IMG/VR virus record: IMGVR_UViG_3300012199_000001
Location: 3,598-67,597 of that record
Reading direction: 5' to 3' (one strand)
Length of the DNA: 64,000 nt
DNA from: a virus
Positions within the stretch are counted from its first letter, which is position 1; every line of letters begins with the position of its first letter. Positions 23,581 through 31,719 of this stretch are shown one piece after another. The notes under the pieces are model-generated. The model was not told the DNA's origin and made no database searches. It saw nothing but the letters and a program-made list of their open reading frames with translations. The translations under genes were made by a program, and so were the position numbers.

Positions 23581-24090
23581 TTAGGAGAGGCGTACTCCTA
23601 CCACTTCCAGGCTAATTGCTCCCACATCAGTCACACCTTCCCTCCACCGCTTAAAGCCAAGAACAGTTGTCTTGTGATCAATGTATAACTTCTGTTCTAG
23701 TCCATCCCATATGACTGCTGTGCAATCCCCCGTTTCCTTATTGTCCACACGCCCAATGATCTGCGCGGTGGTGAAGCGTTCACTACCAAAAAGGGAGGAG
23801 AAGCCTCGGTGCAGTTGAAATGCAGTATATGGCTCAGAGACAAGCAGGTGAGCATGCCCTTGTGGAGTACAGAGAATGAGCTCCTTTATATGGGCAACAT
23901 CACCAGTTGCGGTAAGATCCTCTAGCCACTCTATCTTGCGCCTGCGTGCAACTATCTTGCCGGTTCTAGGATGCATAGTGTGCTCAACCTTCGTCCCCAG
24001 TTCAGAGACTTCTTTTCCCGATGTAAGCAGCACCTTCCAATAAGATTGGCCGGTAAAAATGGTTTTCGCAACAGGCAGGATGATATTCAC
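23581..24090 (-). CDS. Hypothetical protein
   Basis: GAGGAG SD, GTG start. Confidence 0.75.
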   Translation of the reverse strand: MNIILPVAKTIFTGQSYWKVLLTSGKEVSELGTKVEHTMHPRTGKIVARRRKIEWLEDLTATGDVAHIKELILCTPQGHAHLLVSEPYTAFQLHRGFSSLFGSERFTTAQIIGRVDNKETGDCTAVIWDGLEQKLYIDHKTTVLGFKRWREGVTDVGAISLEVVGVRLS

Positions 24091-24140: not shown

Positions 24141-24374
24141 ATGCCGGACGATCAAAAGATTTCCCGCTACCTGATATGGAGTATGCTCGGATATATACCA
24201 GATCCGTGTCCTGAGTACTGGGAGGAGCTGACACAATTGGTAGCTGAACAGCACGAAAGGGATAGCAAAACGACGAGCTATATCAAAGGCAAGTGGAACA
24301 ACAAGTTTCCTCTCACCTCTCTGCTGGATGAGAGAAAGCAGCAGAAGAAGCCTGAAGAAAGCAGCGACAAATAA
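24141..24374 (+). CDS. Small hypothetical protein
   Basis: GGAGG SD; precedes the tRNAs on the same strand. Confidence 0.6.
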   Translation: MPDDQKISRYLIWSMLGYIPDPCPEYWEELTQLVAEQHERDSKTTSYIKGKWNNKFPLTSLLDERKQQKKPEESSDK

Positions 24375-24418
24375 CCTGCAAGGTTGCTCTAGAAACAGCT
24401 TCATGTTAAACTGTGCAA

Positions 24419-24499
24419 GGTAGTGACGCCAACGGTGGTAAACTGTCTTGAAAACAGTGGGGTATAACAGCCTAGCGGGTTCGACTCCTGTCACTACCG
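24419..24499 (+). tRNA. tRNA-Ser (anticodon UGA), atypical D arm, no encoded CCA
   Basis: Acceptor GGTAGTG/CACTACC+G; anticodon arm ACTGT-CTTGAAA-ACAGT; long variable arm; T arm GCGGG-TTCGACT-CCTGT. Confidence 0.85.
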
Positions 24500-24507
24500 C
24501 TTCATCT

Positions 24508-24591
24508 GGTAGGCATGCAGAGCGGCTTATGCAGCAGACTGCTAATCTGTAAAGGATAACACCTTGGTTGGTTCGACTCCAACGCCTACCG
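24508..24591 (+). tRNA. tRNA-Ser (anticodon GCU), no encoded CCA
   Basis: Acceptor GGTAGGC/GCCTACC+G; anticodon arm GCAGA-CTGCTAA-TCTGT; long variable arm; T arm GTTGG-TTCGACT-CCAAC. Confidence 0.88.
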
Positions 24592-24649
24592 TTTCCACTT
24601 CTACATCCTCTAAACAGAAGAGATAAACAAGCGCAAAATAGTCCATAAA

Positions 24650-24678
24650 CTTGCCTGGGGAGCCGTATTGTGGTACAA
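24650..24678 (+). promoter_or_regulatory. Promoter for the HNH gene
   Basis: TTGCCT-17bp-TACAAT with extended -10 TG. Confidence 0.65.
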
Positions 24679-24761
24679 TAGAGGTAGAGATTATTGTCGG
24701 TCTGGAGGGTGTTGATAGCGCCCCCCAAACCTAAATCGCAGCCTGATTGGAGGCCATGATT

Positions 24762-25628
24762 ATGTTTGAATTCTACCATAACGAGCGATCCCCTGCGTCC
24801 AAACTTTGCGCTAAATGCAAAGCGACAAAGCCTCTCGATGAGTATTCCCAACGAAAAGACGGCAAACATGAAGCACGTTGTAAGGAGTGCATACGAGAAG
24901 CTGACAGAGAACGGAACCATAAACGCCGTCCGCGAAAGACACCCATTCTTCCAAAGTCCACCAAAGAGGGATATAAGATATGCAACACATGCTTGATCGA
25001 AAAATCCCACAATGAGTTTTCCCCTGATTCTGCTCAGAAGGATGGCTATACTGGACGTTGCAAGGAATGTAGGGGCAATCGTTATCAATCGCTGCCAGAA
25101 GAAGAAAAAGAACGTATTCGCAGGCAGGATGTAGAAAGCCGCAGGCCACGAAAAGAACTGATTAATGCTCGTGATCGTCTGCGCCATAATACTGATGAAC
25201 ACAATGCAAAGCGAAGAGAGCAGATGGCGCGGAAAAAGGCTACTGATGATAATTTTCAAGAAGCCGTGCGTCAGGCTCAAACCGAGTGGAGAAAGAATAA
25301 TCCTCTGTATACTCGCGAATCTAATCGTCGTCACAAGATTAGGCAAAAAACAGCGAGGTCTGGTGGACGTATAAGCTATAAGCGCATTCTTGAGCGAGAT
25401 GGCTACTTTTGCTATATCTGTGAGAAGGATATAGATTCGACTATTAAATCTAGCGATCCTGCTGGCCTTGTCTTCGATCACAAAATACCTCTTCACCCAA
25501 GAAAGGGTGAGCCTAAAGGGGAGCATACGCTTGACAATATTCATCCCGCACATAAATTGTGCAATGAAAGAAAGTTGAACAGGCAATTCGATAACCTACC
25601 AGCATGGGATCGCAGAGGGGTTGATTGA
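24762..25628 (+). CDS. Free-standing HNH endonuclease with two N-terminal zinc-finger repeats
   Basis: CxxC..K..EY/F..DG..RCKEC twice; RDGYFCYIC..FDHKIPL..GEHTLDNIHPAHKLCNERK. Confidence 0.92.
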   Translation: MFEFYHNERSPASKLCAKCKATKPLDEYSQRKDGKHEARCKECIREADRERNHKRRPRKTPILPKSTKEGYKICNTCLIEKSHNEFSPDSAQKDGYTGRCKECRGNRYQSLPEEEKERIRRQDVESRRPRKELINARDRLRHNTDEHNAKRREQMARKKATDDNFQEAVRQAQTEWRKNNPLYTRESNRRHKIRQKTARSGGRISYKRILERDGYFCYICEKDIDSTIKSSDPAGLVFDHKIPLHPRKGEPKGEHTLDNIHPAHKLCNERKLNRQFDNLPAWDRRGVD

Positions 25629-25662
25629 ATTTCCCCTTTGCGACTCATGCATGTTATAACCG

Positions 25663-26912
25663 TCAAACCCATTGATACTGGAAACCTAGTCATGCTTGTT
25701 GCTCACCTATTGCTAGGCGGGGTCTGTGATTTCTCCAGACCTCCCTGGTTTCTTTTTACGCTATAGCCAGGGATCGGAACATATCTTCGCTTTCGCGCCT
25801 GCGTGTGTTCTCTACGGACTCCGCGCCTTTCGGGTTGGTTGCCTCGGTATTGTCCTTGCGTTAGGAGTTTCACCGATATAGCAGGTTCTTCGAGAGAGCT
25901 TGTTAAGACTCTCAAGCGGCAATCAGTTTACCGGCAGTAATGTACCCATTTTGTTACTCGCTACTACTAGCGGGGCAGATTGTTTCCACCTGCCTCTCTG
26001 GTTTCTTTGCTAGGTTATCGCCAGAGTTCGGACTATGACATCGCTTTCGCGTCTCGCGTTTAGTCTCTACGGTGTCCTCCCCTATTCAGGCTTGGTTCCC
26101 TCGGCGTTGTCTTCCTCAAGAGTTTCACCGATACAGCGAGATTTGCAAATTATGCAGCTTTACTACATAACTGGGGCAATACATTTAATACCCGTCATTC
26201 CAGGCCCCGTGTACCAGGCCATGACAGTATACCAAAAGCCCGCTGTTACGGCTTTTGGTATCGCCACACTCTGTATATATCCGGTTGCGGCCTGCAATTG
26301 TTGCCAGGTTGCCATCCAGGAAGCGGCAGTTGTGTTTGCGGCAGCGGCAGTACCCGTTGTAACTGCAAGGGTCCCGGCTGCATTGGCTGCTGGCGTCTCC
26401 TGAGTGCCTGCTGCATTCACCCCAGACCCGTAGGCATTGGCTTTAATGTAGCTTGTAACAGGGGCTGTTCCGGTATCAGGGTTTGCGCCATTGACGAACG
26501 AGGTGCCATCACCACCTGCACCTGCACTTGGCTGAGTACCAGGAGAGGCGGCAGGCAGCGTGTTATCCTTCCAAGCTGAGAGGATATTGGCTGCGGCAAA
26601 TGTGCCGGTTGCGTCCCAGTTTATACGCCATTGCATGTAATGCGCCGATGTGCCGTCATATGCAGCAACCTTCACGCCGCCTGAAGCGTCAGCGCCGAAG
26701 TAGCCCCACATCTCGGGAATCGTTGATGTGCTTCCTGGACGCAGGAAAGTGGGCCATGAGGCCGACGCAATACTTGCGCCTCCCGCTCCTGTACCACACA
26801 GGCGAAGCTCGTAATTTGCAGTCGCGAACAACATGTCTGTCCATGTCGGTGTTGCGTCAGGTGTACTTGATGCCGTATTTACTTGCGACTTGATGAGTGT
26901 GAAATCGCTGAT
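25663..26912 (-). CDS. Intron-split virion structural protein (exons 26912-26190, 25946-25930, 25690-25663; about 255 aa)
   Basis: Removing both introns gives an in-frame C-terminus ..GPGMTG-GTLLPV-LGFQYQWV*; SD-supported start appears to be ATC at 26912. Confidence 0.82.
25691..25929 (-). mobile_element. Group I self-splicing intron 2 (239 nt, ORF-less)
   Basis: Exon ends in U, intron ends in G; P1 CGGU/GCCG; P3 CCUGC/GCAGG; P4 UCGGUG/UACCGA; P7 GAACA/UGUUC; P8 CGC-GAAA-GCG. Confidence 0.88.
25947..26189 (-). mobile_element. Group I self-splicing intron 1 (243 nt, ORF-less)
   Basis: Exon ends in U, intron ends in G; P1 GGGU/GCCC; P10 AAUGUAUU pairs with 3' exon GGUACAUU; P3 UCUCGC/GCGAGA; P7 GACUA/UAGUC; R-like CCGUAGAGACUA and S-like CAUAGUCC. 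Confidence 0.9.
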
Positions 26913-27048
26913 TTTGGGTACCTCTTTCTCTGTGTGAACTGGCTTTATAAGCCGATTTATGTTATAATAAACAGGACAATAAAATACCTCGGCGAGTGCG
27001 CTAACACTCCCGAGGCGTGACGATAAGATCAGTAAAGGAAACCTTACC

Positions 27049-27813
27049 GTGAGTGAAATTATACCGAAGGTTTGTATTAAGTGCAAACAGCCCTTCCCTG
27101 CTACTCGTGAATTCTTCTTTGCAGACAAGAAGACCAAAGATCATTTGAACGGGCGCTGCAAAAAATGCTCCAAGATACGTGACATGAAACCCCCTGATGG
27201 TTTTAAGCGCTGCACTGGATGTGGTCAAGATTTGCCGCGAACTCCTGAATACTTCCATGCTCATCGTAGTCAATCCGATGGGTTTCGTAGTCAGTGTAAA
27301 ACTTGCAGGCAGGAGAAGCCTTGGAGACCGCCTGATCAGCATTCCCGTGACAATATCAACGAGCGACAACGTGCGTATAGGCTGCGTCGTATTGAGATTG
27401 CGCGAGAATATCAGCATCGCTACGAGGCATCTGACCGTGGGCGTGAGACGCATAGTGCTTATAGGGCAAGTCACTCTGAAGCTATACGAGAACGTCAGCG
27501 TCGTTATTATGCGTCTGATCATGGCCGCGAACGTTTCAGATCTGCACGGCGTAGAAGACGTGCGCGCAAACACAATGCTCTTGGCACACACACACCTGAA
27601 GATATCCAGGCGCAATACGAGCGGCAAAAGGGACGTTGCTATTATTGCAACGTTCAGGTTCAGTGGGGGCAGCACCACATCGAGCACGTTGTCCCGTTGT
27701 CGCGTGGAGGCGCGGATGATATGAGTAACATTGTGATTGCCTGTAAGCCATGCAATCTGAAGAAGCATAATAAACTTCCGCACGAATGGCCCGAAGGCGG
27801 ACGTTTGTTGTAG
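27049..27813 (+). CDS. Free-standing HNH endonuclease with two N-terminal zinc-finger repeats
   Basis: CIKC..EFF..RCKKC and CTGC..EYF..QCKTC; QKGRCYYC..HIEHVVPLSRGGADDMSNIVIACKPCNLKK. Confidence 0.93.
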   Translation: MSEIIPKVCIKCKQPFPATREFFFADKKTKDHLNGRCKKCSKIRDMKPPDGFKRCTGCGQDLPRTPEYFHAHRSQSDGFRSQCKTCRQEKPWRPPDQHSRDNINERQRAYRLRRIEIAREYQHRYEASDRGRETHSAYRASHSEAIRERQRRYYASDHGRERFRSARRRRRARKHNALGTHTPEDIQAQYERQKGRCYYCNVQVQWGQHHIEHVVPLSRGGADDMSNIVIACKPCNLKKHNKLPHEWPEGGRLL

Positions 27814-27821
27814 TTTTGCAA

Positions 27822-27851
27822 TAGCATCTCCCATAATAAGCGAGATGCTAC
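27822..27851. terminator. Hairpin downstream of the HNH gene
   Basis: TAGCATCTC..GAGATGCTA stem; no clear U-run. Confidence 0.45.
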
Positions 27852-27911
27852 CAACTCCTACTGTACTTTCTACCAAAATTCTATTCACCCCTTTCTATAC
27901 ATTTATTGCAC

Positions 27912-28103
27912 CTATAAACCGAAGGCAATTTTGATACAGACGATCAGGCAGATGACCGCTGCGAGAAACCACAGGAGCCATGCAAATCCTCCCCCTGCTC
28001 TGGCCTGATAGCCTGGGATGGCATACCCTATCAGACAAATCAGCAGAGCTACAAAGACGAGTGCAAAGTGCGCGGTCAGGATGTTCTCAAAAAAAGTTGC
28101 CAT
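27912..28103 (-). CDS. Small two-TM membrane protein
   Basis: AGGAGGT SD; two hydrophobic helices. Confidence 0.7.
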   Translation of the reverse strand: MATFFENILTAHFALVFVALLICLIGYAIPGYQARAGGGFAWLLWFLAAVICLIVCIKIAFGL

Positions 28104-28119
28104 GCTACCTCCTGATCAA

Positions 28120-31100
28120 TCAGTAGTCATTTGCTACGACGCTCCATTGCGGAGTTGTTGGCGACATTACGCCGTTGCTCACTCCTGGCTCAAGCGACCC
28201 TGCGACCCACACCTTTCCGAATAATTGAGCAGGCCATGACCCAATCACACGGAAGCGCGCATAGTAGTAGGTGCCGGTAGGAATGACTGCTACAGCGGTT
28301 GAGAGTGTAGTAGCAACACCTCCGATCTTCTTGATAATCGAGACTCCTGTCGTGCTCACTGCCAGCCTGTAGAAGTTGTTGGCATCAACGTAGCGCACCT
28401 CAGGACCACCCTGGATCGTTGAGGCTGATAATTGTTCGCGCACCGTTGTCTCCATATCAGTCCCAGTACGGCTCCCTAGCACCATATGCACATCACCAGT
28501 CGTATTGGTGATCGTGGCTTCGTTGGAGGCGATAGCATCAGTGCCAGTGCCAGTCTTGACCCACGTCTGAGTATCCTGTGCTGTACCCCATCCAGACTGA
28601 TTACCGCGTACTGTATTATCGATCCCGAGTGGTGCGGTTGAGCGCGTACCTGTCACAGAGGGGTATGCGCCGCAGACGCGTATGTAGAGTCCTGAGACAA
28701 TGGGACTGACCAGAAATCCGGTAGCAGCGAGGATGACCTGGATGGTAAGCGATTTGCCAACAGTGCTCGTTCCAACAGGCAGACCTGGAATGATGGCATC
28801 GGGTGTCACTGCTCCATTCGTACATTGTTGCCAGGTTGTGCCACCGTTGAGGGAGGCCATCACTGCGATAGTGGACTGAGTATTGCCGCGCAAGTTGATT
28901 TCCGACCAGCAGATTTGTGTATTACCGCAGGTTCCTAGACTGTTCAGGCTGATTGCTGGTGAGGTCCAGAGACCGGCAAAGGTATTCGTCACGCTGAAGT
29001 TGGCGATTTTTGCAGTGCCTGCACTAGAGTTTTGTGCATAGGTGCGCAGTCCGATATTCCCGGCAGCAGTATAGGTATTGTCGAGGATATCAATGATGGG
29101 CGAGGAGCCGCCATTCCAGTAGACGGTATGCCTATTCTGCCCAACAACCAGCTTGAGGTGATAGGTGACATTGTTGGTAATCGTTTCGGCTATTTTTTTG
29201 ATAACGGTGAATGGCCCTGATGAATTTAGCCCTGGTGTAGATGGGGGGTTATTGTAGCCGAACCCGAGTGTGACAGAAGGCCCGCCTGCTCCACTTCCCT
29301 GCTGAATGCTCACATAATAGGCGAAGCTATTGTTAGGAGATCCCCAGTAGGTTTGTCTGTACAGAAAACCTACTTCGTTTTGCAGAGGGCTCCCTCCGCC
29401 ATTGAGAGTAAAGTCTGCTTCAGCAGTAAAGTTCTGGACAGCCGCAATAAAGTTGAAGCGTGACGCAGACCATGCGTTCCCGCTCGATCCTCCTGTCGAT
29501 GGTGTTGATACCGTGTATGCCCCTCCTGAAACAGATTGAGTTGGATTACTCGCATTCGTATTCCCAGGAACCCAGGTCATATTACCGAGATTTGCCCAAC
29601 TATAGGAGGTAGTGCCCAGAACTAAATCCCCATTTGCGTTAGGCGCTGTCCCTTGCTCAGTTCCAGTGTTCCACGCAGCAGTCGATCCATAGAGGGTCAC
29701 GCTGTCAGCGGTGGAAGCATTCACCGCTGAAGCGATGGAGATGTTGACGGAGAGGAGCGACGGAATAGCCGTTGGGTCCTGTCCGCCTGAGAAGGTCTCT
29801 AACAGGTAGAGCGAGAGGCCAGTCACATTTGCCCCTGCTGGAAGTCCCGGTAACGGTTGGTTGTTTGTGCAGGGGAGCCAGGTGGTTCCATCGTAACTGG
29901 CAAAAATATCTGTACTGCCAGCGACAGTCGCGCCACCAGGACTTCCCAGGATTACCCCAGGCCCAACTGTTGGGATGGTTGCTATCCAGGTGAGGAGCGA
30001 GCTTTTTACCAGTTTTACTACATCGATGCTATAGGCAGGAGAGATACGTGAGCATATTGCTGGATCATAGACTGGAACCACCGTAACAAATGTCGCAGCC
30101 GTGATATACGCACCTATCGACGCAACTACGGGCGGATTAAGTGTAGGGGTCGTCTGAGTTGTCCCAAAGAAGGGAGTACCTGAATGGCTCCCGAGATAGC
30201 AGTTTTTGATATAGATATCAAAGACGCCTGCAATGTTTGCTGCATTGAAGATTGCAACTCCAGTAATGACTTTTCCCGAGAGGATACCAAGGTTGATTTG
30301 ACGTGTGTACCACGTGTCTCGTGCATGATCAGAGAGATCCTGAATAGGCGATCCGGAGACGAGATTCTGATCCCAGACCCCCACATCAAAGTTTGTATCT
30401 AGCGACCCTAGATACTCAGTTAGGGCCGTCCCGTCGTTGAAATAGAGTTCAACCCCTCCTTCCTGCGATGGAGAGGAGGAGGCAATCCAGATATCGTAGA
30501 AGAGGGTATCATTAACCCCGATGGTATAGCTACCAGTCCAGATCATTGCATCGACACGATTATCCGCAACTGCCGCATCGACGGTAATAACGCCGAAATG
30601 GGACTCATCGATCTTGACCTTGCTCTTGAGTTTTGGCTGATAGAGTTGAGTGACCGTCGATGAAACCGTTGTTGAAAAGGGCAGGGTCGCACCTGAAGAA
30701 AAGGGCAGGGTCGCAGAAGTTGAGAAGGGCAGGGATGCACCTGTTGAGAAGGGCAGGGTTGGGTTCGTCGAAAACGAGGTGTTCACTGTTGTATTCAGGT
30801 TTCCTGTGGGATTGAGCGTTACTCCACTTCCACTGAAGGTTGCACTTTCGCCAGGGCTCCCACTAGAAATAGAGATGTTTCCAGACGGTGTATAGCTTGT
30901 AGAGGTGTTCAGCGATACGTTCAGGTTTCCTGATGGATTTGCGCTCACTGTACCACTCGCGTTCCCGCTGACCGTGCCGCTTGCCGTACCGCTCACTGTA
31001 CCACTCGCGTTCCCGCTGACCGTGCCACTGGCACTCCCGCTTGCCGTACCACTTGCCGTTTGCTGAGCTTGAGCAAACTCGACGCCATAGGCAAAGGAGA

Positions 31101-31719
31101 GGGTTGACTGCATCTTGATCGCGTTGACGGTTGTTGGCTTGAGTGCATTTGCCGAGGCACTCATGTTTGCCAATGTGCCAGTTGCAAATTGCGCTGTTGT
31201 ACTCTCTGCAATCGAGAGGTCAGCGCCTGCTGGAGTCAGTTCGAGGTCTCCATCCCCTGCCAGGGATCGCCCAGTTGTCCCACTCAAGATGCCCATGTTG
31301 AAATCGGCTGGAGTACTATCGTAGTTGAGTGCAAAGTTTTGACCAATACCTTCAGCGAGCAACACGTCATTTAACTGATCAACTACAAGCTTTCCCGCTG
31401 GCTGCGGCGTTGTGTAGACACGCGTATAGGTTCGTTTGCCTGCTGCATAGACTCCCCATCCAACACAATCGATACTATGCAGGATTGCGCCTGATGGATA
31501 ATAAGGGGTCTCCTTATCGGAGTTGATGACTCCATCAAAGATCGTCCCGCGCACCGGATCAGTAAGCAGCACCTGCTCACCCTTCACAAAATGCGTTGTT
31601 CCCGCATAATCAATGATGTCACATTTGAAACGATGCCGCTCATCTAACGTTTCTATATTATCAAATTGATCTTCGATCATCGTATAAGACATATTGCCAA
31701 TTGTTAGCATTGTAGCCAT
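28120..31719 (-). CDS. Tail-tip protein: N-terminal hub half plus carbohydrate-binding-like domains
   Basis: Directly after tape measure; IFDGVI..IDCVG..KRTY..AGKLVVDQL..EGI hub-like start; lectin-like beta domains. Confidence 0.85.
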   Translation of the reverse strand: MATMLTIGNMSYTMIEDQFDNIETLDERHRFKCDIIDYAGTTHFVKGEQVLLTDPVRGTIFDGVINSDKETPYYPSGAILHSIDCVGWGVYAAGKRTYTRVYTTPQPAGKLVVDQLNDVLLAEGIGQNFALNYDSTPADFNMGILSGTTGRSLAGDGDLELTPAGADLSIAESTTAQFATGTLANMSASANALKPTTVNAIKMQSTLSFAYGVEFAQAQQTASGTASGSASGTVSGNASGTVSGTASGTVSGNASGTVSANPSGNLNVSLNTSTSYTPSGNISISSGSPGESATFSGSGVTLNPTGNLNTTVNTSFSTNPTLPFSTGASLPFSTSATLPFSSGATLPFSTTVSSTVTQLYQPKLKSKVKIDESHFGVITVDAAVADNRVDAMIWTGSYTIGVNDTLFYDIWIASSSPSQEGGVELYFNDGTALTEYLGSLDTNFDVGVWDQNLVSGSPIQDLSDHARDTWYTRQINLGILSGKVITGVAIFNAANIAGVFDIYIKNCYLGSHSGTPFFGTTQTTPTLNPPVVASIGAYITAATFVTVVPVYDPAICSRISPAYSIDVVKLVKSSLLTWIATIPTVGPGVILGSPGGATVAGSTDIFASYDGTTWLPCTNNQPLPGLPAGANVTGLSLYLLETFSGGQDPTAIPSLLSVNISIASAVNASTADSVTLYGSTAAWNTGTEQGTAPNANGDLVLGTTSYSWANLGNMTWVPGNTNASNPTQSVSGGAYTVSTPSTGGSSGNAWSASRFNFIAAVQNFTAEADFTLNGGGSPLQNEVGFLYRQTYWGSPNNSFAYYVSIQQGSGAGGPSVTLGFGYNNPPSTPGLNSSGPFTVIKKIAETITNNVTYHLKLVVGQNRHTVYWNGGSSPIIDILDNTYTAAGNIGLRTYAQNSSAGTAKIANFSVTNTFAGLWTSPAISLNSLGTCGNTQICWSEINLRGNTQSTIAVMASLNGGTTWQQCTNGAVTPDAIIPGLPVGTSTVGKSLTIQVILAATGFLVSPIVSGLYIRVCGAYPSVTGTRSTAPLGIDNTVRGNQSGWGTAQDTQTWVKTGTGTDAIASNEATITNTTGDVHMVLGSRTGTDMETTVREQLSASTIQGGPEVRYVDANNFYRLAVSTTGVSIIKKIGGVATTLSTAVAVIPTGTYYYARFRVIGSWPAQLFGKVWVAGSLEPGVSNGVMSPTTPQWSVVANDY
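30655..31060 (-). repeat. Paired 8-aa repeat arrays (SGTVSGNA-like and TLPFSTGA-like)
   Basis: ASGTASGSASGTVSGNASGTVSGTASGTVSGNASGTVS..TLPFSTGASLPFSTSATLPFSSGATLPFST; 24-bp DNA periodicity. Confidence 0.85.

What the first reader, a model, noticed from the sequence alone, without database searches (positions are those of the whole stretch)
24650..27851. Two free-standing HNH genes bracket the twin-intron gene: candidate double collaborative-homing unit
Seen: the intron-split gene has an antisense HNH gene on each side. HNH-1 stops 35 nt from the last exon and HNH-2 starts ~135 nt from the gene start. Each has its own promoter-like sequence and two tandem Zn-finger repeats, and neither intron carries an ORF. 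Known: in collaborative homing an adjacent free-standing endonuclease cuts intron-less alleles, while the intron protects its own allele by disrupting the site. Inference: two introns 17 nt apart plus two nucleases may form a one-nuclease-per-intron invasive cassette, also usable against co-infecting relatives.
Basis: inference. Interest (0 to 1): 0.8.

Follow-up and report, generated by a model that had tools for sequence, protein, structure and literature searches.

The report
Twin-intron tail gene flanked by HNH genes
A soil phage tail-region gene carries two small self-splicing introns in its last codons and has a stand-alone DNA-cutting (HNH) gene on each side, which is a crowded example of a known kind of selfish-DNA cluster and not a new mechanism.

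Summary
A minus-strand gene of about 255 codons (26912..25663) is split by two paralogous ORF-less group I introns of 243 and 239 nt, 17 nt apart. It lies between two plus-strand HNH genes, which hold the only two HNH domains in the 67.6-kb record.

The splice model rests on uninterrupted homologues with the same C-terminus, and on P1, P3-P7 pseudoknot and helix covariation.

The "one nuclease per intron" reading is only partly supported.
- HNH-1 belongs to a family at the same intergenic spot (convergent with the gene's 3' end) in six other phages. Two of those six carry an intron there and four carry none.
- One relative (two loci) has the second intron and no HNH.
- No relative has an HNH-2 counterpart.
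- Intron/HNH co-occurrence is not significant (Fisher p = 0.14).
- Introns enter at four positions within 19 nt (-1, 0, +3, +17) and come from two ribozyme types.
- HNH-1 divergence is uncoupled from divergence of the neighbouring gene.

Best reading: a homing-endonuclease hot spot. HNH-1 probably mobilises the introns in trans, and HNH-2 is a separate bracketing element ("HEG island"). No cutting or splicing has been shown.

This scan has already noted candidate collaborative homing about 405 times on other DNA. I file this as a new member of a known kind, of moderate interest.

The parts
24762..25628 (+). HNH-1: free-standing HNH endonuclease gene (288 aa from the ATG at 24762; the open frame starts at 24747). 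It has two Zn-ribbon repeats followed by an HNH domain.
   Evidence: PF01844, 22.8 bits; phrog_1035, 3.7e-25; D-H...N...H and the Cys columns are invariant in 14 family members. Homologues lie at the same syntenic spot in L121, L012, L022, L127, L128 and L130.
25663..25690 (-). Exon 3 of the split gene (codes ..LGFQYQWV and the stop TGA at 25665-25663).
   Evidence: Intron-less homologues end ..LPVLGFQYTWV*.
25691..25929 (-). Intron 2: ORF-less group I intron, 239 nt. The 5' exon ends in U and the intron ends in G. P1 is CGGU/GCCG.
   Evidence: (R1, 251.7 bits). The same intron lies at the same site in L011/L025.
25930..25946 (-). Exon 2: a 17-nt micro-exon (codes GTLLP plus part of V).
25947..26189 (-). 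Intron 1: ORF-less group I intron, 243 nt, a paralogue of intron 2. P1 is GGGU/GCCC.
   Evidence: 244.8 bits; Rfam RF00028, 29.1 bits, E 1.6e-5, below the gathering score of 50.
26190..26912 (-). Exon 1 of the split tail-module gene (241 codons, ATC start). Its function is unknown.
   Evidence: There is no Pfam or PHROG match.
27049..27813 (+). HNH-2: free-standing HNH endonuclease gene (254 aa) with two Zn-ribbon repeats followed by an HNH domain.
   Evidence: PF01844 46.9 bits, PF14279 47.4 bits; 198 homologues at E <= 0.001. It has no counterpart beside the target gene in any relative.
24419..24592 (+). A tRNA-Ser(GCU) gene (24507..24592) and a second tRNA-like sequence (24419..24498). Both lie on the HNH-1 strand, upstream of HNH-1, and belong to the same antisense insertion.
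   Evidence: These are absent from intron-less, HNH-less relatives such as L002 and L003. L128 also has a tRNA (Ile, UAU) upstream of its HNH-1 homologue.
27912..28103 (-). A 63-codon predicted membrane-protein ORF between the fibre gene and HNH-2. This is context: it is part of the roughly 1.2-kb extra DNA between the fibre gene and the split gene.
   Evidence: GGAGG ahead of the ATG. In L002 the fibre gene and the target gene are 3 nt apart. It has no Pfam or PHROG match.

Best explanation
The stretch is a cluster of four selfish elements around one tail-module gene of an uncultured soil phage.

Two paralogous, minimal (about 240 nt) group I ribozyme introns interrupt the last 45 nt of the coding sequence. 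They must splice out of the late mRNA to give the conserved C-terminus ..GPGMTGGTLLPVLGFQYQWV.

HNH-1 is a free-standing homing-endonuclease gene of a family that lives at exactly this intergenic spot, convergent with the gene's 3' end, and that turns over horizontally.

Inferred mechanism for HNH-1:
- It nicks or cuts alleles that lack the HNH gene, in or near the gene's 3' end.
- Repair from the donor genome then copies HNH-1 and, by co-conversion, the nearby introns (collaborative or trans homing).
- The introns break up the likely target sequence and so protect their own genome.

HNH-2 is a separate free-standing homing-endonuclease gene with its own, unknown target near the gene's 5' side. 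Together the two genes bracket the gene as a 'HEG island'. Nothing ties HNH-2 to one particular intron.

Shown: the anatomy, the intron fold, the splice junctions, the HNH families, and their distribution among relatives. Inferred: cleavage, target sites, protection and mobilisation.
For: Introns.
- Intron-less homologues (L002, L003, L010, L012, L014, L016, L017, L018, L020, L021, L022, L024) end ..MTGGTLLPVLGFQYTWV* or close variants. This matches the joined exons.
- The 5' exons end in U and the introns end in G. P1 changes in step with the exon: GGGU/GCCC against CGGU/GCCG.
- RNAalifold on 3 introns gives 51 pairs, 17 of them with compensatory changes.
- A P3 pseudoknot helix of at least 5 bp forms in 35 of 42 family members, against 12.7% of cross-pairings between members.
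- Intron 1 gives a sub-threshold Rfam group I match.

HNH-1 locus family.
- The same order, g169(-) | HNH(+) | target(-), is found in L121, L012, L022, L127, L128 and L130.
- HNH identity and target identity are uncorrelated (Spearman -0.11 over 21 pairs). L012 and L022 have targets 87% identical and HNHs 30% identical. The window and L121 have HNHs 65% identical and targets 50% identical. This fits horizontal turnover.

Hot spot. Introns enter at -1 (L128), 0 (window intron 1), +3 (L121, a different ribozyme type: Rfam 72.6 bits, no R1 hit) and +17 (window intron 2, L011/L025). All lie within 19 nt.

Record. Its only two HNH domains flank this gene.

Literature, passages read.
- Collaborative homing is defined as a free-standing endonuclease plus an ORF-less intron converging on one site (PMC3984707).
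- MobE mobilises a neighbouring intron without cutting at the insertion site, with co-conversion up to about 2 kb (PMC2790892).
- HEGs bracket essential phage genes as 'HEG-islands' (PMC10448857).
Against: - No cleavage, nicking or splicing data exist.
- Co-occurrence of intron and HNH-1 is not significant: 3 of 7 against 1 of 11, p = 0.14. Without the window it is 2 of 6 against 1 of 11, p = 0.27. In the sample drawn without regard to HNH it is 0 of 2 against 1 of 11.
- Four HNH-1-bearing relatives lack introns, and L011/L025 keep intron 2 without any HNH.
- The gene's 3' end is not more conserved at the nucleotide level than the rest: 0.61-0.68 against 0.64 overall. A specially conserved homing site is therefore not evident.
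- Across the wider intron family, HNH-1/2-type genes were found in only 5 of 71 viral loci. This used family-specific HMMs, and other nuclease families were not surveyed.
- The loci are not phylogenetically independent, and the window was picked because it has both elements.
Confidence: 0.5

Rival explanations
1. Independent tenants of a permissive hot spot. The introns and the two HNH genes are unrelated selfish elements that gather at gene ends in the tail module because insertions there are tolerated. The HNHs home on their own (intron-less homing). The introns are relics that spread by other routes, such as a lost intron-borne endonuclease or reverse splicing. Neither helps nor protects against the other.
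For: - Elements occur separately in relatives: HNH only in L012, L022, L127 and L130; intron only in L011/L025.
- Co-occurrence is not significant.
- The intron family is widespread (109 CM hits in 92 sources) and often multi-copy within a locus (L053, L030, L052, L082, L086, L060, L056). An HNH-1/2-type gene was seen in only 5 of 71 such loci.
- Barth et al. raise HEG turnover with loss of the intron-borne HEG as an alternative origin of such loci (PMC10448857, passage read).
Against: - Four separate intron insertion positions within 19 nt, from two ribozyme types, sit right beside the resident HNH-1 family. A shared cause, such as recurrent breaks there, explains this more easily.
- Three of seven HNH-1-bearing loci have introns, against one of eleven loci without the HNH. 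The trend is present but not significant.
Confidence: 0.3
2. One reading: a double collaborative-homing cassette in which each HNH is the dedicated partner of one intron. Each nuclease cuts at that intron's insertion site, and each intron protects against its own nuclease.
For: - There are two introns and two nucleases in one 3.2-kb stretch, and these are the only two HNH domains in the record.
- The two nucleases are only distantly related (26% identity over the N-terminal repeats), so they could differ in specificity.
Against: - No HNH-2 counterpart lies next to this gene in any relative, including those with introns (L011/L025, L121, L128).
- HNH-2 lies about 0.87 kb of coding sequence from both intron sites, whereas HNH-1 lies 63-80 nt from them in an intron-less allele (coordinates).
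- Relatives with one intron have either an HNH-1-type gene or none, and never an HNH-2-type gene.
Confidence: 0.07
3. The HNH genes are not homing elements. They serve the phage in another way, for example by cutting co-infecting competitors' or host DNA, or in DNA processing. Their position beside the intron gene is then incidental.
For: - The HNH-2 family is large (198 homologues at E <= 0.001). Sources label members only generically, as McrA-like or as endonuclease VII / HNH in cultured phages.
- No target is known.
Against: - The genes are antisense insertions inside a late structural operon and are absent from close relatives.
- The HNH-1 family has a fixed position, yet its divergence is uncoupled from its neighbours.
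- The number of Zn-ribbon repeats varies from member to member.
- All three points are typical of free-standing homing endonuclease genes.
Confidence: 0.08

Closest known systems
[quoted passage not shown] Examples are the cyanophage S-PM2 psbA intron with F-CphI and the DNA polymerase introns of T3/T7-like phages. Passages in PMC3984707 and PMC10448857 were read. The original 2009 papers were seen only as references.
   Same: [quoted passage not shown] Relatives carry the nuclease without the intron, and neither element is universal.
   Different: - There are two paralogous introns 17 nt apart and two nuclease genes.
- The host gene is a tail-module gene of unknown function.
- The nuclease is of the Zn-ribbon-repeat + HNH type.
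- Cleavage at the insertion site, which is the defining property, is untested.
Trans homing by T4 MobE of the nrdB intron with defunct I-TevIII (PMC2790892, abstract and discussion passages read).
   Same: A free-standing HNH gene next to an intron-bearing gene could carry a non-autonomous intron along by co-conversion without cutting at the insertion site. Both HNH genes here lie within the roughly 2-kb co-conversion range quoted in that paper.
   Different: The introns here have no endonuclease remnant at all. No genetic crosses are possible yet because the host is unknown.
HEG islands: homing endonuclease genes that bracket essential phage genes. This includes the ICP1 terminase intron with an adjacent T5orf172 HEG (PMC10448857, passages read).
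   Same: A structural-module gene is flanked on both sides by free-standing HEGs, and an intron lies beside a HEG and does not contain one.
   Different: The bracketed cargo here is a single small gene carrying two introns. I did not test for polar or partial homology between islands.
ORF-less group I intron in a minor tail gene of Cluster J mycobacteriophages BAKA and Optimus, in genomes rich in free-standing HNH genes (PMC3706429, passages read).
   Same: A small (265 bp) ORF-less group I intron sits in a tail gene, bounded by U and G, and was found by comparison with intron-less relatives.
   Different: That case has a single intron, and splicing was shown by RT-PCR. The passages I read describe no adjacent dedicated nuclease.
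Multi-intron phage genes such as those of Staphylococcus phage Twort. That one Twort gene carries three introns is recalled. Only the title of the paper on the two-intron ribonucleotide reductase gene was seen, in a reference list.
   Same: Several small group I introns of one family lie close together in one phage gene. In my own search, many viral loci carry 2-5 copies of this intron family.
   Different: The spacing here is only 17 nt, and the introns lie in the last 45 nt of the gene.

Membership tests
Group I intron | The 5' exon ends in U, paired to G in P1. The intron ends in G. | tested here: met
   Read directly. Intron 1..GGGU | ... AUG |, with the internal guide GCCC. Intron 2..CGGU | ... 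AUG |, with the guide GCCG. The same rule holds in L011, L121 and L128.
Group I intron | A conserved core made of the P4-P6 domain and the P3-P7 pseudoknot, supported by covariation. | tested here: met
   - 17 of 51 pairs show compensatory changes across 3 introns.
- P7 reads GACUA/UAGUC, GAACA/UGUUC and GAGCA/UGCUC in the three introns.
- a P3 helix of at least 5 bp forms in 35 of 42 members, against 12.7% of cross-pairings.
- The alignment used had been fitted to the model for every helix except P3.
Group I intron | Reaches the gathering score of Rfam RF00028. | tested here: not met
   There was no hit on the whole window or on a 4.2-kb stretch. On 581 nt, intron 1 scored 29.1 bits (E 1.6e-5) against a gathering score of 50, and intron 2 was not listed. 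The different intron in L121 scored 72.6 bits.
Group I intron | Removing the intron restores the reading frame seen in intron-less homologues. | tested here: met
Group I intron | Self-splicing with guanosine. | not testable with these tools
   No RNA holder was listed.
HNH endonuclease (PF01844) | The Pfam domain scores above its cut-off, and the catalytic D/H-H...N...H residues and the Zn-binding Cys residues are present. | tested here: met
   HNH-2 scores 46.9 bits and HNH-1 22.8 bits, against a cut-off of 21.4. D239, H240, N259, H264 and C267 (numbered on HNH-1) are invariant in 14 family members.
Collaborative homing system | An ORF-less intron with an adjacent free-standing endonuclease gene. 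| tested here: met
Collaborative homing system | [quoted passage not shown] | not testable with these tools
   This needs a cleavage assay.
Collaborative homing system | The intron and the nuclease are inherited or found together. | tested here: inconclusive
   Introns occur in 3 of 7 HNH-1-bearing loci and in 1 of 11 loci without it, p = 0.14. L015 and L023 were dropped as chimeric or truncated, and duplicate loci were merged.
HEG island (Barth et al. 2023) | A core gene or operon is flanked at both ends by homing endonuclease genes. | tested here: met
HEG island (Barth et al. 2023) | The flanking HEGs mark the boundaries of genetic exchange between related phages. | not tested
   No near-identical relative was available. 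The closest target protein is 70% identical.

The most novel reading that the evidence does not exclude
The 19-nt stretch at the end of this tail gene is the cleavage zone of the resident HNH-1 endonuclease family. ORF-less introns have been recruited there repeatedly (four positions, two ribozyme types) as immunity against the nuclease. The twin introns of this phage would be stacked immunity against two HNH-1 variants of different specificity. That would record an arms race between a homing endonuclease family that turns over and the gene it targets. The natural allelic series (no element, nuclease only, intron only, one intron plus nuclease, two introns plus two nucleases) would make the origin of collaborative homing directly testable in vitro.
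Probability: 0.2. Interest if true: 0.6.

Novelty: new member of a known kind. Interest (0 to 1): 0.4.

Why it matters
If HNH-1 does cut at the intron sites, this locus and its relatives form a ready-made natural series. The series covers no element, nuclease only, intron only, a different intron type plus nuclease, and twin introns plus two nucleases. It could be used to test two open questions:
- How ORF-less introns and free-standing endonucleases come to share a target.
- Whether introns are kept as protection against the nuclease. Barth et al. note that the origin of such arrangements is unclear (PMC10448857).

It also shows that a small group I intron family missed by Rfam's gathering threshold is common in uncultured phages, often in several copies per gene. 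This matters for gene calling in viral metagenomes. Otherwise the arrangement is of a kind already described in phages and already noted many times in this scan.

Tried and rejected
Searches and tests that gave nothing useful:
- DNA searches of 24300-28100 (megablast) and 25600-27000 (blastn) against cultured phage records found no match.
- tblastn of an intron-less target homologue against the same records found no match. HNH-2 has only relatives of 35% identity or less over most of its length there.
- Rfam at gathering score over the whole window, and at E <= 10 over 4.2 kb, gave no group I hit.
- My first intron pattern was too strict and gave no hits.
- AlphaFold2 of the target protein with 12 sequences gave mean pLDDT 38.5. 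The model is unusable, so I ran no fold search.
- The ESM Atlas gave only unnamed viral clusters under 0.8.
- The PDB sequence search found nothing for HNH-1 and only generic HNH/Cas9 domains for HNH-2.
- No RNA holder was listed.
- Laying contigs of four soil DNA runs showed one 3,381-nt unitig across 24562-27942. It had no variant without an intron or without an HNH gene. The two holders may be the source samples. One 'joint' (27028 to 27763) has only 20 nt on one side, comes from an unrelated 1,057-nt contig, and was disregarded.
- Nucleotide conservation along the gene is not raised at the 3' end.
- Intron/HNH co-occurrence is not significant.

Rows dropped before counting:
- L015 (diverges into unrelated high-GC sequence after residue 201) and L023 (target truncated and overlapping the next gene) were dropped.
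- L013/L026 duplicate L002, L019/L027 duplicate L003, and L126 duplicates L121.
- L025 was merged with L011.
- L129 holds an HNH-1 relative but no target gene within the 6.4 kb held.

Limits:
- I did not ask for supplementary files of the papers. Locus tables in the supplements of PMC10448857 may bear on how common twin-HEG brackets around intron genes are.

I considered and rejected the idea that the gene simply ends at the TAG at 26163 with two repeat elements downstream. Twelve intron-less homologues carry the extra 17 residues that the exon joins restore.


Full report
WHAT IS THERE

The window is part of a 67.6-kb IMG/VR virus record, estimated 44% complete. The finding lies in a minus-strand tail module. 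The order is: a 1,199-codon fibre-like gene (31719..28120); a 63-codon membrane-protein ORF; the region of interest; a 169-codon gene (24090..23581, here called g169); and a 445-codon gene.

Two ORFs run on the opposite strand.
- HNH-1 is 24747/24762..25628. Pfam HNH scores 22.8 bits against a cut-off of 21.4.
- HNH-2 is 27049..27813. Pfam HNH scores 46.9 bits and HNH_5 scores 47.4 bits.

Both best match PHROG 1035, which is annotated endonuclease VII. Both have two CxxC...CxxC repeats ahead of the nuclease domain. They are only distantly related to each other, at 26% identity over the repeats. They hold the only two HNH domains in the whole record.

THE SPLIT GENE

The minus-strand frame that opens the gene runs into a stop at 26163. 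Uninterrupted homologues in other phage contigs are about 17 residues longer and end ..GPGMTGGTLLPVLGFQYTWV* or close variants. Removing 26189..25947 and 25929..25691 restores exactly this ending (..GPGMTG|GTLLPV|LGFQYQWV*). A 17-nt middle exon is left. The start codon is ATC at 26912, where most relatives have ATG.

THE INTERVENING SEQUENCES ARE GROUP I INTRONS

- Each 5' exon ends in U and each intron ends in G.
- A short guide near each intron's 5' end pairs with its own exon end: GGGU/GCCC for intron 1 and CGGU/GCCG for intron 2.
- The two introns are paralogues. The alignment's mean column identity is 82%, about 65% by my count of identical columns.
- Together with a third copy in L011 they give 51 consensus pairs, 17 with compensatory changes.
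- The classical P7 helix reads GACUA/UAGUC, GAACA/UGUUC and GAGCA/UGCUC in the three copies.
- A motif from P4-P5-P4' hit 71 viral and 20 genome contigs.
- A covariance model built from the three introns found 109 matches in 92 sources.
- Across distinct matches, the P3 pseudoknot, which was not in the model, forms a helix of at least 5 bp in 35 of 42 sequences. Only 12.7% of cross-pairings between sequences do so.
- Rfam's group I model does not reach its gathering score: 29.1 bits against 50 for intron 1, found only when 581 nt were searched, and nothing for intron 2.
- Neither intron has room for a nuclease gene. A mechanical 70-codon frame in intron 2 overlaps the ribozyme core and matches no Pfam family.
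- Many viral loci hold 2-5 copies of this intron family close together, so a twin intron is not unusual for the family.

SURVEY OF RELATIVES, SEARCHED BY THE TARGET GENE

Searching with the target protein gave 2 viral and 16 metagenome loci. I merged duplicates and dropped two unclassifiable loci, L015 and L023. The remaining loci fall into three classes:
- Ten distinct loci have neither an intron nor an HNH gene. In these the fibre or upstream gene, the target gene and g169 follow each other directly.
- L012 and L022 have an HNH-1-type gene at the same place and in the same orientation, and no intron.
- L011 and L025, identical here, have one intron exactly at the window's second site and no HNH.

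SURVEY OF RELATIVES, SEARCHED BY HNH-1

Searching with HNH-1 relatives found four more phages with the order g169(-) | HNH(+) | target(-).
- L127 and L130 have no intron.
- L128 has one intron of the same family (88.5 bits), one base upstream of the window's first site. It also has a tRNA-Ile gene upstream of the HNH gene.
- L121 has an HNH 65% identical to HNH-1. Its intron is a different group I type (Rfam 72.6 bits, no hit with my model), three bases downstream of the first site.

No relative has an HNH-2-type gene beside this gene.

WHAT THE SURVEY SAYS

1. The HNH-1 family is tied to this spot: seven phages including the window. However, its divergence is uncoupled from that of the neighbouring gene (Spearman -0.11). 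L012 and L022 have 87% identical targets but 30% identical HNHs. The window and L121 have 65% identical HNHs but 50% identical targets. This is the behaviour of a mobile endonuclease gene that turns over.
2. The last codons of the gene are an intron hot spot. There are four insertion positions within 19 nt, from two ribozyme types.
3. Introns and HNH-1 are not significantly associated: 3 of 7 against 1 of 11, p = 0.14. The p-value is 0.27 without the window. In the sample drawn without regard to HNH the figures are 0 of 2 against 1 of 11.
4. The 3' end is not specially conserved at the nucleotide level.
5. Exon bases next to intron 2 (..CCGGU|A) are shared by the two intron-2 alleles, the window and L011. 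Intron-less alleles lack them and use other Pro and Val codons. This fits either co-conversion or selection for P1 pairing.

MECHANISM

The best-supported reading is a homing-endonuclease hot spot. HNH-1 is a free-standing homing endonuclease whose target lies in or near the gene's 3' end. In an intron-less allele its insertion point would be only 63-80 nt from the two intron sites. The ORF-less introns would be carried along by co-conversion and would split the probable target. This is collaborative homing as defined in PMC3984707, or trans homing as shown for T4 MobE, where the cut need not be at the insertion site and co-conversion reaches about 2 kb (PMC2790892).

HNH-2 is a separate element. 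Together with HNH-1 it brackets the gene like the 'HEG islands' of Barth et al. (PMC10448857). Nothing pairs it with one intron.

All cleavage, protection and splicing steps are inferred. The main rival is that the elements merely share a permissive site.

COMPARISON AND NOVELTY

The following are all in print in the passages I read:
- ORF-less introns beside free-standing nucleases.
- Introns in phage tail genes (Cluster J phages, PMC3706429).
- Genes bracketed by nuclease genes.

That one Twort gene holds three introns is recalled, not read. This scan has itself noted candidate collaborative homing about 405 times in at least 350 genomes.

What this locus adds is density and a natural allelic series: two introns 17 nt apart in the last 45 nt of a gene, two nucleases, and relatives that show most intermediate states. 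I rate it a new member of a known kind, with interest 0.4.

LIMITS

- The host is unknown.
- The function of the target gene is unknown (no Pfam, PHROG or Atlas lead; the structure model failed).
- No RNA data exist.
- The loci are few and related.
- Paper supplements were not seen.

Noticed in passing
window 24419-24592 (+): Two tRNA-like genes sit just upstream of HNH-1 on its strand, inside the minus-strand tail operon. ARAGORN calls only tRNA-Ser(GCU) at 24507-24592. The other (24419-24498) scores 36.5 bits on Rfam's tRNA-Sec model, below the gathering score. L128 also has a tRNA (Ile, UAU) upstream of its HNH-1 homologue, so tRNA genes and this nuclease family may travel together.
   Followed up: partly
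window 26910-26912 (-): The split gene appears to start with ATC, 8 nt behind GAGG, where most relatives have ATG. L010 and L021 also lack ATG, GTG or TTG at that place.
   Followed up: partly
L121 10874-12175 (-): The phage of L121 carries a second, diverged copy of the pair target gene + g169 (35% and 31% identity to the window's proteins) a few kb from the first. This second copy has no intron.
   Followed up: no
L050 10082-12029; L092 1576-3696; L058 2829-4227: Apart from L011/L025, the closest relatives of the window's introns (155-165 bits) interrupt a roughly 400-codon gene of unknown function in other viral contigs. In L050 an HNH-2-family gene (86.8 bits on my family HMM) lies directly upstream of that gene. 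In L092 a 159-codon ORF ending in a CxxC..N motif lies upstream; I did not check it against Pfam.
   Followed up: partly
L099-L118 (genome contigs): The same intron family occurs in genomes assembled from metagenomes of Candidate Phyla Radiation bacteria (Doudnabacteria, Magasanikbacteria, Saccharibacteria), a Chloroflexi bin (L100, 8 hits) and others (L115, 4 hits). I did not look at which genes the introns split.
   Followed up: no
window 27912-28103 (-): A 63-codon predicted membrane-protein ORF with a good ribosome-binding site lies between the fibre gene and HNH-2. It is absent at this place in L002, where the fibre and target genes are 3 nt apart.
   Followed up: no
alignment A7 (HNH-1 family): Members of the HNH-1 family carry different numbers of N-terminal CxxC...CxxC repeats, about one to four, ahead of a conserved nuclease domain. 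This may be a modular way of changing DNA specificity.
   Followed up: no
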